Below, piece by piece: positions 26,530 through 27,676 of a stretch of 64,000 bases of DNA. Position 1 is the first letter of the stretch. Each line of letters begins with the position of its first letter. The notes under the pieces were generated by a model that was not told where the DNA came from, searched no databases, and saw only the letters and a list, made by a program, of their open reading frames with translations. Location: the sequence record PQ352352.2; one strand, written 5' to 3'. Source of the DNA: Escherichia phage vB_EcoM_PTE-Eco15. Position numbers and translations under genes: made by a program.

Positions 26530-27036
26530 ATGATGGATTTGCAGCTTATTACTACTGAAATGGTCGTTGAAGCATACGGTGATACTACAGATGGGATTTC
26601 TGTATTCAAAGGAAATCGTCGAGTTGGATATATCACTGATCTTAAGAAAGATTTAGCTAAGCAAGTCAAGCGGAAAACGACCATTAAAGAATATCGAAAT
26701 CGTCGTCTTGAGCAAGCCCGTGATATGCTTCCTGATGCGGTTGAAGAGATGAAAGTCTTTTTAGAAAATCAACTCGCTAAGTATGATTGTGAAGTGTTCA
26801 TTAATCAGACTCAACCTAATGTTCATATCAATAGCTGTAAATGCTATATTATCGTTAATCCTTTAACGGGAAAACATCGTCTTGGAATTAGTAATCCAAA
26901 TCGTAGCGCATCGGATATGGCAGAAGATGTTGCGGCATGCTTTAAAATTTCTAAATCTCCAGCTGAACATCATATTTTAATTAACGGTCTTTCTCAAGAC
27001 GATATTATAGAGGTTATTAAAACTTTATGCAATTAA
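26530..27036 (+). CDS. alc: Alc transcription terminator/unfoldase (168 aa ORF)
   Basis: Position after rnlA as in T4; sequence recalled as Alc-like. Confidence 0.75.
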   Translation: MMDLQLITTEMVVEAYGDTTDGISVFKGNRRVGYITDLKKDLAKQVKRKTTIKEYRNRRLEQARDMLPDAVEEMKVFLENQLAKYDCEVFINQTQPNVHINSCKCYIIVNPLTGKHRLGISNPNRSASDMAEDVAACFKISKSPAEHHILINGLSQDDIIEVIKTLCN

Positions 27037-27380
27037 GTAATACGACAACAGGTTTGCTATTAATTGTAATTGCATTAGGCGGAACTTCTTTAATTTTAAA
27101 AAATAAAATTGAAAGATTAGAAACGTCTGTTGTAGAAATTACAAAAACGGCCAATGAAAACGCCTTAGCATTAAATAATTTGCGAATTCAGTATAATTAT
27201 ATTGATGCGATGAATAATAAAAATCGTGAGGCAATTGCTGCTATTGAGCGTGAAAATGAAAAACTGCGCAAAGACGCAAAGAAGGCGGATGTGGTGGCTC
27301 ATAAGCCAGGATTGGTTGAAAAACAAATCAACAACTCCTTCAACAAGTTCGCAGAAGACATCCAGGACCTTTCTAAATGA
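27027..27380 (+). CDS. hypothetical membrane-anchored coiled-coil protein (117 aa)
   Basis: N-terminal hydrophobic helix GLLLIVIALGGTSLIL followed by charged coiled-coil-like sequence. Confidence 0.5.
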   Translation: MQLSNTTTGLLLIVIALGGTSLILKNKIERLETSVVEITKTANENALALNNLRIQYNYIDAMNNKNREAIAAIERENEKLRKDAKKADVVAHKPGLVEKQINNSFNKFAEDIQDLSK

Positions 27381-27676
27381 TTAAACTATCAGCAGTAATA
27401 TTATCTATTGGTCTTCTAGTTGGTTGTTCGACAAAGCCTCTAGAAGTAAAGAAAGAAACAGTTCATCCTAATTGGCCTGTACAAATAAAGTCATATGATG
27501 AAGCTAAACTATCTTGGCAAGTTAAAGTTATCGATGGTAAAGCTTGGGTCGGTATGCCATTTGAAGATTCCCAGGAATTTCGTATTTGGCTTAATGATGT
27601 AAAACGATATGTACATGATCAGAAAACTATGATATGTTATTATCGCCAAGAGTTAAAAGAGGATAAATGTAAATGA
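27377..27676 (+). CDS. predicted lipoprotein (99 aa)
   Basis: Signal peptide plus lipobox MIKLSAVILSIGLLVGC-S. Confidence 0.55.
   Translation: MIKLSAVILSIGLLVGCSTKPLEVKKETVHPNWPVQIKSYDEAKLSWQVKVIDGKAWVGMPFEDSQEFRIWLNDVKRYVHDQKTMICYYRQELKEDKCK

What the first reader, a model, noticed from the sequence alone, without database searches (positions are those of the whole stretch)
27027..27676. Adjacent membrane-anchored coiled-coil protein and small lipoprotein of unknown function
ORF 27027-27380 has an N-terminal transmembrane helix followed by a charged coiled-coil-like region. ORF 27377-27676 begins with a signal peptide and lipobox (LLVGC-S) and is predicted to be a 99-aa lipoprotein. Small phage-encoded envelope proteins in T-even phages often act in superinfection exclusion or in modifying host envelope functions, so this pair is a candidate for such a role.
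Basis: inference. Interest (0 to 1): 0.35.

Follow-up and report, generated by a model that had tools for sequence, protein, structure and literature searches.

The report
T4 spanin pair PseT.3/PseT.2
These two small envelope proteins are the well-known phage T4 spanin pair (PseT.3 and PseT.2), which breaks the host's outer membrane in the last step of lysis, so the finding is real but ordinary and already explained.

Summary
ORF 27027-27380 (117 aa) has an N-terminal transmembrane helix and a long helical periplasmic domain. ORF 27377-27676 (99 aa) has a signal peptide with lipobox L-V-G-C (Cys17, Ser at +2).

The function is not unknown. The window is a Tequatrovirus (T4-like) genome, and the two ORFs are orthologues of T4 pseT.3 (91% identical) and pseT.2 (98 of 99 residues). 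They sit in the same alc - pseT.3 - pseT.2 - pseT.1 - pseT gene order. [quoted passage not shown] Kongari et al. 2018 (PMC6139136) showed that the T4 genes complement a lambda Rz/Rz1 double amber mutant, and that Cys87 and Cys98 of PseT.2 are both essential.

Both cysteines and the lipobox cysteine are present here and invariant in nine divergent relatives. Many annotated relatives already name the pair i-spanin/o-spanin or Rz/Rz1.

The looser idea that the pair acts on the host envelope is correct. Verdict: already known, low interest.

The parts
27027..27380 (+). pseT.3 orthologue: i-spanin (inner-membrane subunit), 117 aa. N-terminal TMD at about residues 6-24, periplasmic helix alpha1 to residue 91, a K-P-x-L hinge (K93, P94, L96), and helix alpha2 over 94-116. 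It has no cysteines.
   Evidence: 91% identity to T4 PseT.3 over 117 aa. phrog_739 'Rz-like spanin' at E 3.2e-37. Hydropathy scan and cysteine count. AF2 model with pLDDT 88.7. K93, P94 and L96 are invariant in 9 divergent relatives.
27377..27676 (+). pseT.2 orthologue: o-spanin (outer-membrane lipoprotein subunit), 99-aa precursor. Signal peptide residues 1-16, lipobox LVGC with acylated Cys17 and Ser at +2 (outer-membrane sorting). The mature protein is 83 aa and carries Cys87 and Cys98.
   Evidence: 98 of 99 residues identical to T4 PseT.2; the one differing position is an ambiguous residue (X) in the T4 record. phrog_812 'Rz-like spanin' at E 3.5e-43. Lipobox pattern match and Cys positions 17, 87 and 98. 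C17, C87 and C98 are invariant in 9 divergent relatives. C87 and C98 are experimentally essential in T4 (PMC6139136).
27364..27380 (+). Junction between the two spanin genes: AGGA Shine-Dalgarno-like motif at 27364-27367, 9 nt before the pseT.2 ATG, and a 4-nt ATGA start/stop overlap at 27377-27380. This is the 'separated' spanin gene architecture, probably with translational coupling.
   Evidence: Read directly from the sequence. The same i-then-o adjacency is seen in all 8 other loci examined.
26530..27036 (+). alc (inhibitor of host transcription), the upstream neighbour. It overlaps the pseT.3 start by 10 nt and serves as a synteny anchor; it is not part of the spanin.
   Evidence: Pfam PF17527 at E 4.9e-91. 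Same gene order in T4.

Best explanation
[quoted passage not shown] PseT.3 is anchored in the inner membrane by its N-terminal transmembrane helix and extends a long helical domain into the periplasm. PseT.2 is exported, lipidated at Cys17 and, having Ser rather than Asp at +2, sorted to the inner leaflet of the outer membrane. The periplasmic domains of the two proteins bind each other, forming a complex that spans the periplasm through the peptidoglycan mesh. PseT.2 subunits become linked by intermolecular disulfides through Cys87 and Cys98. After the holin T and the endolysin E have acted and the peptidoglycan is degraded, the complexes are free to move and change conformation. They then bring the inner and outer membranes together and fuse them, which removes the outer membrane as the last barrier to virion release. 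Basis of each step: the orthology, topology signals and cysteine conservation are shown here. Spanin function and the cysteine requirement of the T4 pair are shown in the literature. The fusion mechanism and the restraint by peptidoglycan are inferred by analogy with lambda Rz/Rz1.
For: Identity and synteny: 91% and 99% identity to T4 PseT.3 and PseT.2, and the same alc-pseT.3-pseT.2-pseT.1-pseT order as NC_000866, where both genes are annotated 'Rz-like spanin'. The DNA is 97-99% identical to hundreds of Tequatrovirus genomes, several of which annotate the pair as i-spanin/o-spanin or Rz/Rz1. Families: phrog_739 and phrog_812, both 'Rz-like spanin' in the lysis category, at E 3e-37 and 3.5e-43. 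There are also weaker matches to two other Rz-like spanin PHROGs and a sub-threshold echo of P2 LysB. Topology: TMD at residues 6-24 of the i-spanin; lipobox with Cys17 and Ser at +2 in the o-spanin. Conservation: C17, C87 and C98 are invariant and the i-then-o adjacency is kept in 9 phages from Tequatrovirus, Mosigvirus, Gaprivervirus, Moonvirus, Winklervirus, Slopekvirus, Ceceduovirus and one unclassified Straboviridae phage (Providencia PSTCR6). Structure: the i-spanin model has two helices separated at the conserved K-P, matching the published alpha1/alpha2 description. Experiment (PMC6139136): T4 pseT.3 plus pseT.2 complement lambda Rz-am Rz1-am for lysis. The C87S, C98S and double mutants are lysis-defective. 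A disulfide-linked PseT.2 dimer forms only when PseT.3 is present. The peptides used to raise the antibodies in that paper (ERENEKLRKDAKKA and WLNDVKRYVHDQKT) occur unchanged in the window's proteins. Lambda mechanism: the spanin is a heterotetramer spanning the periplasm that is thought to fuse the IM and OM (PMC5295617 abstract; PMC12642591 introduction).
Against: Nothing found here contradicts this explanation. Four caveats apply. (1) The experiments were done on the T4 alleles, not this phage's; the i-spanin differs at 10 of 117 positions, all within residues 2-36, that is the TMD and the membrane-proximal part. (2) The T4 proteins were tested in a lambda lysis background, not by deletion in T4 itself. 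(3) Membrane fusion has not been shown directly for the T4 pair, whose o-spanin is predicted to be folded (beta-alpha-beta), unlike the proline-rich, unstructured lambda Rz1, so mechanistic details may differ. (4) The genes lie in the early/middle alc-pseT transcription unit, with no T4 late-promoter consensus nearby on the + strand, which is unusual for lysis genes. No solved structure exists, and my o-spanin model is low confidence (pLDDT 51).
Confidence: 0.96

Rival explanations
1. One reading: the pair is a superinfection-exclusion or envelope-modification module that blocks DNA entry or adsorption of other T-even phages, like T4 Imm and Sp.
For: It rests only on general features: small phage envelope proteins that lie in an early/middle transcription unit rather than next to the holin or endolysin. 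There is no late promoter consensus on the + strand nearby, and the holin t is about 24 kb away on the other strand.
Against: Neither protein hits any PADLOC model. All significant family matches are spanin families. The T4 orthologues have a demonstrated lysis function (PMC6139136). T4's known exclusion genes, imm and sp, are different genes (my own knowledge of the T4 literature). The strict co-occurrence of an IM-anchored partner with an OM lipoprotein carrying conserved C-terminal cysteines is the signature of a spanin.
Confidence: 0.02
2. The pair is a spanin with a second role. Because it is made early, the trans-periplasmic complex might also stabilise the envelope or tune it during lysis inhibition or resistance to lysis-from-without.
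For: The genes lie in an early/middle unit. T4-like phages show lysis inhibition, and rIII and the holin t are both in this window. The T4-type o-spanin is folded and structurally unlike lambda Rz1 (PMC6139136).
Against: There is no direct evidence for it. In lambda the spanin also accumulates well before lysis and is simply held inactive by the peptidoglycan, so early accumulation needs no extra function. No literature hit supporting a second role turned up in my searches.
Confidence: 0.03

Closest known systems
Phage T4 PseT.3 / PseT.2 two-component spanin (the T4 i-spanin and o-spanin families of Kongari et al. 2018; phrog_739 and phrog_812)
   Same: Orthologous, with 91% and 99% identity, the same lengths (117 and 99 aa) and the same alc-pseT.3-pseT.2-pseT.1 synteny. 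The TMD, the lipobox Cys17, the essential Cys87 and Cys98, and the 4-nt ATGA junction ('separated' architecture) are all the same.
   Different: There are ten substitutions in the i-spanin, all within residues 2-36 (TMD and juxtamembrane region). The o-spanin has Ile at the one position that is ambiguous (Ile or Thr) in the T4 record. Downstream, this phage has an extra 100-aa ORF between pseT.1 and pseT that T4 lacks.
Phage lambda Rz / Rz1 spanin
   Same: The same functional kind: a type II inner-membrane protein with a helical or coiled-coil periplasmic domain, plus an outer-membrane lipoprotein. The T4 pair substitutes functionally for Rz/Rz1 (PMC6139136). Both depend on homotypic intermolecular disulfides.
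   Different: No significant sequence similarity to the lambda families; there are only weak PHROG cross-hits for the i-spanin. In lambda, Rz1 is embedded in Rz in the +1 frame, whereas here the genes are separate. Lambda Rz1 is short, proline-rich and unstructured, whereas PseT.2 is larger and predicted to be beta-alpha-beta. In lambda both subunits carry cysteines and a single disulfide suffices, whereas here the i-spanin has none and both o-spanin cysteines are required. Lambda's genes sit in a late lysis cassette, whereas here they lie in an early/middle unit far from the holin and endolysin genes.
Phage P2 LysB / LysC spanin
   Same: A two-component spanin with the same topology. NCBIfam TIGR03495 (LysB) gives a faint match to the i-spanin's helical region.
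   Different: The match is far below the curated cutoff (14.5 bits against 92.75, E 0.032), so this protein is not a member of that family. P2's genes have the overlapped architecture.

Membership tests
Two-component spanin (general definition) | The i-spanin is an integral inner-membrane protein with a single N-terminal TMD (type II, N-in/C-out) and a predominantly helical periplasmic domain. | tested here: met
   Hydrophobic window at residues 6-24 (KD 1.97) with no other hydrophobic segment. The AF2 model is helical over 5-91 and 94-116 with pLDDT 88.7. Orientation was not tested directly.
Two-component spanin (general definition) | The o-spanin is an outer-membrane lipoprotein: a signal peptide with a lipobox, a Cys at +1, and no Asp at +2 (no inner-membrane retention). 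| tested here: met
   PROSITE-style lipobox match at VILSIGLLVGC, with Cys17, Ser at +2 and Thr at +3. Cys17 is invariant in 9 relatives. Actual lipidation and localisation cannot be tested with these tools.
Two-component spanin (general definition) | The two genes are adjacent, overlapping or embedded, with the i-spanin gene first. | tested here: met
   4-nt ATGA overlap with the i-spanin gene upstream. The same arrangement is found in 8 other Straboviridae loci.
Two-component spanin (general definition) | At least one periplasmic cysteine available for homotypic intermolecular disulfide bonding. | tested here: met
   The o-spanin has C87 and C98, and the i-spanin has none. This is the '0 + 2' pattern described for T4 (PMC6139136).
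Two-component spanin (general definition) | Required for outer-membrane disruption at lysis, or able to complement a spanin-null phage. | not testable with these tools
   Shown for the T4 orthologues by complementation of lambda Rz-am Rz1-am (PMC6139136). It was not tested for this phage's alleles.
T4 PseT.3 i-spanin family (phrog_739) | Full-length sequence homology to T4 PseT.3. | tested here: met
   91% identity over 117 of 117 aa, E 1e-79. phrog_739 at E 3.2e-37, covering 1-117 of the protein and 2-122 of the 122-position profile.
T4 PseT.2 o-spanin family (phrog_812) | Full-length sequence homology to T4 PseT.2, with the conserved C-terminal Cys pair. | tested here: met
   98 of 99 residues identical, E 6e-75. 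phrog_812 at E 3.5e-43. C87 and C98 are invariant.
Lambda Rz / Rz1 families | Sequence homology to lambda Rz and Rz1, the embedded gene architecture, and a proline-rich Rz1. | tested here: not met
   No Pfam match to a spanin or Rz family for either protein. The genes are separate, not embedded. The mature PseT.2 is not proline-rich (sequence). The pair is functionally analogous to Rz/Rz1 but is not a member of these families.
Superinfection exclusion / anti-phage defence proteins | Homology to a known exclusion or defence protein. | tested here: not met
   No PADLOC hit at E up to 0.1 for either protein. The only PHROG hit outside the lysis category is a weak partial match of the o-spanin to phrog_22199, of unknown function, at E 1.4e-4.

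The most novel reading that the evidence does not exclude
Because the T4-type spanin is encoded in an early/middle unit far from the holin and endolysin genes, and has a folded o-spanin unlike lambda Rz1, it could have a second role before lysis. One example would be bracing the envelope or tuning it during lysis inhibition or superinfection. My evidence neither supports nor strictly excludes this.
Probability: 0.03. Interest if true: 0.5.

Novelty: already known. Interest (0 to 1): 0.05.

Why it matters
It matters little as a discovery. The pair is the textbook T4 spanin, already annotated as such in RefSeq T4 and in many relatives, and validated experimentally in 2018. The practical value is for annotation: many deposited Tequatrovirus records still label one or both genes 'hypothetical protein' or 'putative membrane protein', so a naive reader can take them for unknowns. 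The open questions about the T4-type spanin are its structure, how a folded o-spanin drives fusion, and why its genes are expressed outside the late lysis genes. Those belong to the whole family and are not raised by this window in particular.

Tried and rejected
1. Pfam gave no curated family for either protein. The only matches for the i-spanin were sub-threshold coiled-coil families, and the o-spanin had none, so Pfam alone would have left the pair as 'unknown'.

2. NCBIfam gave only sub-threshold hits: P2 LysB at 14.5 bits against a cutoff of 92.75, and an Lpp-type signal-peptide match. These are not usable for membership.

3. A PDB sequence search found no solved relative of either protein at E below 0.2.

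4. The single-sequence AlphaFold2 model of the o-spanin was poor (pLDDT 51.2). I therefore ran no fold search on it and do not rely on its strand/helix/strand order, beyond noting that it does not contradict the published beta-alpha-beta prediction.

5. The generic sigma-70 promoter and terminator scan of 24.5-29.5 kb found fewer promoter-like sites than the shuffles gave (14 against a mean of 21), so it was uninformative. The best site, at 26473-26501 (10 of 12 matches, with an extended -10 TG), lies just upstream of alc. A search for the T4 late-promoter consensus TATAAATA found none on the + strand between 14.6 and 31.6 kb.

6. My first two guesses at the T4 coordinates fetched the wrong regions.

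7. I deliberately did not spend the large protein-database searches (search for homologous proteins, the search of protein representatives) or the metagenome scans, because identity was settled by direct comparison with T4.

8. The superinfection-exclusion hypothesis was considered and rejected (PADLOC negative; spanin homology).

Full report
OBSERVATION. ORF 27027-27380 (+) encodes 117 aa. ORF 27377-27676 (+) encodes 99 aa. The two overlap by the 4-nt ATGA start/stop motif, and the 99-aa ORF overlaps the next ORF (27673-27897) in the same way.

In the 117-aa protein the only strongly hydrophobic stretch is residues 6-24 (TTTGLLLIVIALGGTSLIL, mean Kyte-Doolittle 1.97), and there are no cysteines. 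The 99-aa protein matches the bacterial lipoprotein lipobox pattern (VILSIGLLVGC), with the lipidated Cys at position 17 followed by Ser and Thr. It has two more cysteines, at positions 87 and 98. SignalP, LipoP and TMHMM themselves were not available.

IDENTITY. The window is a Tequatrovirus (T4-like) genome. The 1.8-kb stretch 26500-28300 matches 658 phage records by megablast, 408 of them at 95% identity or more. The best match is Tequatrovirus BCH953P2 at 99.2%. In those records the genes under the match are named alc (inhibitor of host transcription), i-spanin / 'spanin Rz' / 'spanin inner membrane subunit', o-spanin / 'outer membrane lipoprotein Rz1', and polynucleotide kinase. Many records still say 'hypothetical protein'.

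[quoted passage not shown] The window's 117-aa protein is 91% identical (107/117, no gaps) to T4 PseT.3, and all ten differences fall within residues 2-36. The 99-aa protein is identical to T4 PseT.2 at 98 of 99 positions. The remaining position is one that the T4 record itself marks as ambiguous, Ile or Thr.

PHROGs places the two proteins in phrog_739 (E 3.2e-37) and phrog_812 (E 3.5e-43), both 'Rz-like spanin' in the lysis category. The i-spanin also gives weaker hits to two other Rz-like spanin PHROGs. Pfam has no family for either protein, which explains why a naive reading leaves them as unknowns.

WHAT IS KNOWN ABOUT THE T4 PAIR. Kongari et al. 2018 (PMC6139136) treat T4 PseT.3/PseT.2 as one of three paradigm two-component spanins, alongside lambda Rz/Rz1 and P2 LysB/LysC, and as the paradigm of the 'separated' gene architecture. 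Their findings on the pair are:
- pseT.3 plus pseT.2 complement the lysis defect of a lambda Rz-am Rz1-am lysogen.
- PseT.3 (117 aa) has no periplasmic cysteine.
- PseT.2 matures to an 83-aa lipoprotein with cysteines at positions 87 and 98.
- The C87S, C98S and double mutants are all lysis-defective.
- A reducing-agent-sensitive PseT.2 dimer forms only when PseT.3 is present.

They also predict two helices (alpha1 and alpha2) joined by a very short linker in PseT.3, and a beta-alpha-beta organisation in PseT.2. The two peptide epitopes they used to raise antibodies (ERENEKLRKDAKKA and WLNDVKRYVHDQKT) are present unchanged in the window's proteins (compare).

TESTS OF THE DEFINING FEATURES HERE. 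A tblastn search with the o-spanin finds 1,241 phage records, with identity down to about 32%. Hosts include Escherichia, Klebsiella, Aeromonas, Serratia, Providencia, Citrobacter and others. I took seven divergent loci plus T4: JM17 (Mosigvirus), VR7 (Gaprivervirus), Merlin (Moonvirus), X20 (Winklervirus), PSTCR6 (Providencia), Assk (Aeromonas) and KP15 (Slopekvirus).

In every one of these loci a gene of about 107-125 codons for a protein with a hydrophobic N-terminus lies immediately before the o-spanin gene. In the o-spanin alignment C17 (lipobox), C87 and C98 are invariant, along with a few core residues (P31, P34, W47, W71 and others). In the i-spanin alignment the sequence is much more variable (20-46% identity outside Tequatrovirus), but K93, P94 and L96 are invariant.

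A single-sequence AlphaFold2 model of the i-spanin is confident (mean pLDDT 88.7). It shows a helix from residue 5 to 91, a break exactly at the conserved K-P, and a second helix over 94-116, which agrees with the published alpha1/alpha2 picture. The o-spanin model is poor (pLDDT 51.2). Its strand-strand-helix-strand-strand order does not contradict the published prediction, but I do not rely on it. Neither protein has a solved relative in the PDB by sequence.

MECHANISM. [quoted passage not shown] The topology signals are also shown.

What follows from established knowledge of lipoprotein sorting: Ser at +2 means Lol-dependent transfer to the outer membrane.

[quoted passage not shown] Once the holin (T) has released the endolysin (E) and the wall is degraded, the complexes are freed and fuse the inner and outer membranes, which destroys the last barrier to release.

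The T4-type o-spanin is structurally unlike lambda Rz1, so the details of the fusion step may differ. This is a recognised open question for the family and is not specific to this window.

GENOMIC CONTEXT. As in T4, the spanin genes are not in a lysis cassette. They lie on the + strand of the window in the alc-pseT block. The T4 late-promoter consensus TATAAATA is absent from the + strand between 14.6 and 31.6 kb. The best sigma-70-like site in the neighbourhood lies just upstream of alc, at 26473-26501.

Other lysis genes are in the window but distant. The holin t is at 1962-2618 on the - strand (phrog_860, E 1e-107), with a TATAAATA box immediately upstream at 2636-2643. rIII is at 31745-31993 (phrog_1457, E 4.7e-44).

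'Unknown function' and 'candidate for superinfection exclusion' are not supported. There is no PADLOC hit, all significant family hits are to spanins, and the orthologues have a demonstrated lysis function. The looser phrase 'modifying host envelope functions' is true in the sense that the pair destroys the outer membrane at lysis. I rate the interpretation as partly supported.

NOVELTY AND SCORE. Already known. These are near-identical orthologues of an experimentally characterised, RefSeq-annotated T4 gene pair. Interest is 0.05. The most novel reading not excluded is a second, pre-lysis role for the early-expressed T4-type spanin. I give that about 3% probability and found nothing that points to it.

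Noticed in passing
window 27901-28203 (+): A 100-aa ORF lies between pseT.1 and pseT. It is absent from the T4 reference, where pseT.1 abuts pseT, but it is present in 708 phage records at 38-100% identity. It falls in phrog_2364 (unknown function, E 1.4e-52) and has no Pfam or NCBIfam family. One record (phage FriedrichMiescher) labels it 'putative homing endonuclease', and I found no support for that label. The pseT.2-to-pseT interval varies among relatives, with different small ORFs in JM17, VR7, Merlin, X20 and PSTCR6.
   Followed up: partly
window 27673-27897 (+): The pseT.1 orthologue (74 aa; phrog_2347, unknown function, E 1.3e-42) is coupled to the o-spanin gene by a 4-nt ATGA overlap. 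It is present in the Tequatrovirus and Mosigvirus (JM17) loci examined, but VR7, Merlin, X20 and KP15 have no ORF abutting pseT.2 at that position. Its function is unknown, and I did not examine whether it has anything to do with the spanin.
   Followed up: no
window 1962-2618 (-) and 2636-2643 (-): The T4-type holin gene t (218 aa; phrog_860, E 9.7e-108) has an exact T4 late-promoter consensus TATAAATA immediately upstream. It lies about 24 kb from the spanin genes, on the opposite strand. This illustrates the dispersed lysis genes of T4-like phages.
   Followed up: partly
window 31745-31993 (+): The rIII orthologue (82 aa; phrog_1457 'lysis inhibition; accessory protein', E 4.7e-44) lies about 4 kb downstream of the spanin pair.
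   Followed up: partly
window 27027-27134 (codons 2-36 of the i-spanin): All ten amino-acid differences from T4 PseT.3 fall in the N-terminal 36 residues (TMD and juxtamembrane segment), while residues 37-117 are identical. Across genera the i-spanin is far more divergent (20-46% identity) than its o-spanin partner (33-72%).
   Followed up: partly
window, whole: TATAAATA occurs 18 times in the window, against 8.8 +/- 2.8 in shuffles. Thirteen of the 18 are on the - strand, clustered at 46-62 kb and 2-12 kb. This fits T4 late transcription units running opposite to the early/middle block that holds the spanin genes. No tRNA genes are in the window.
   Followed up: no
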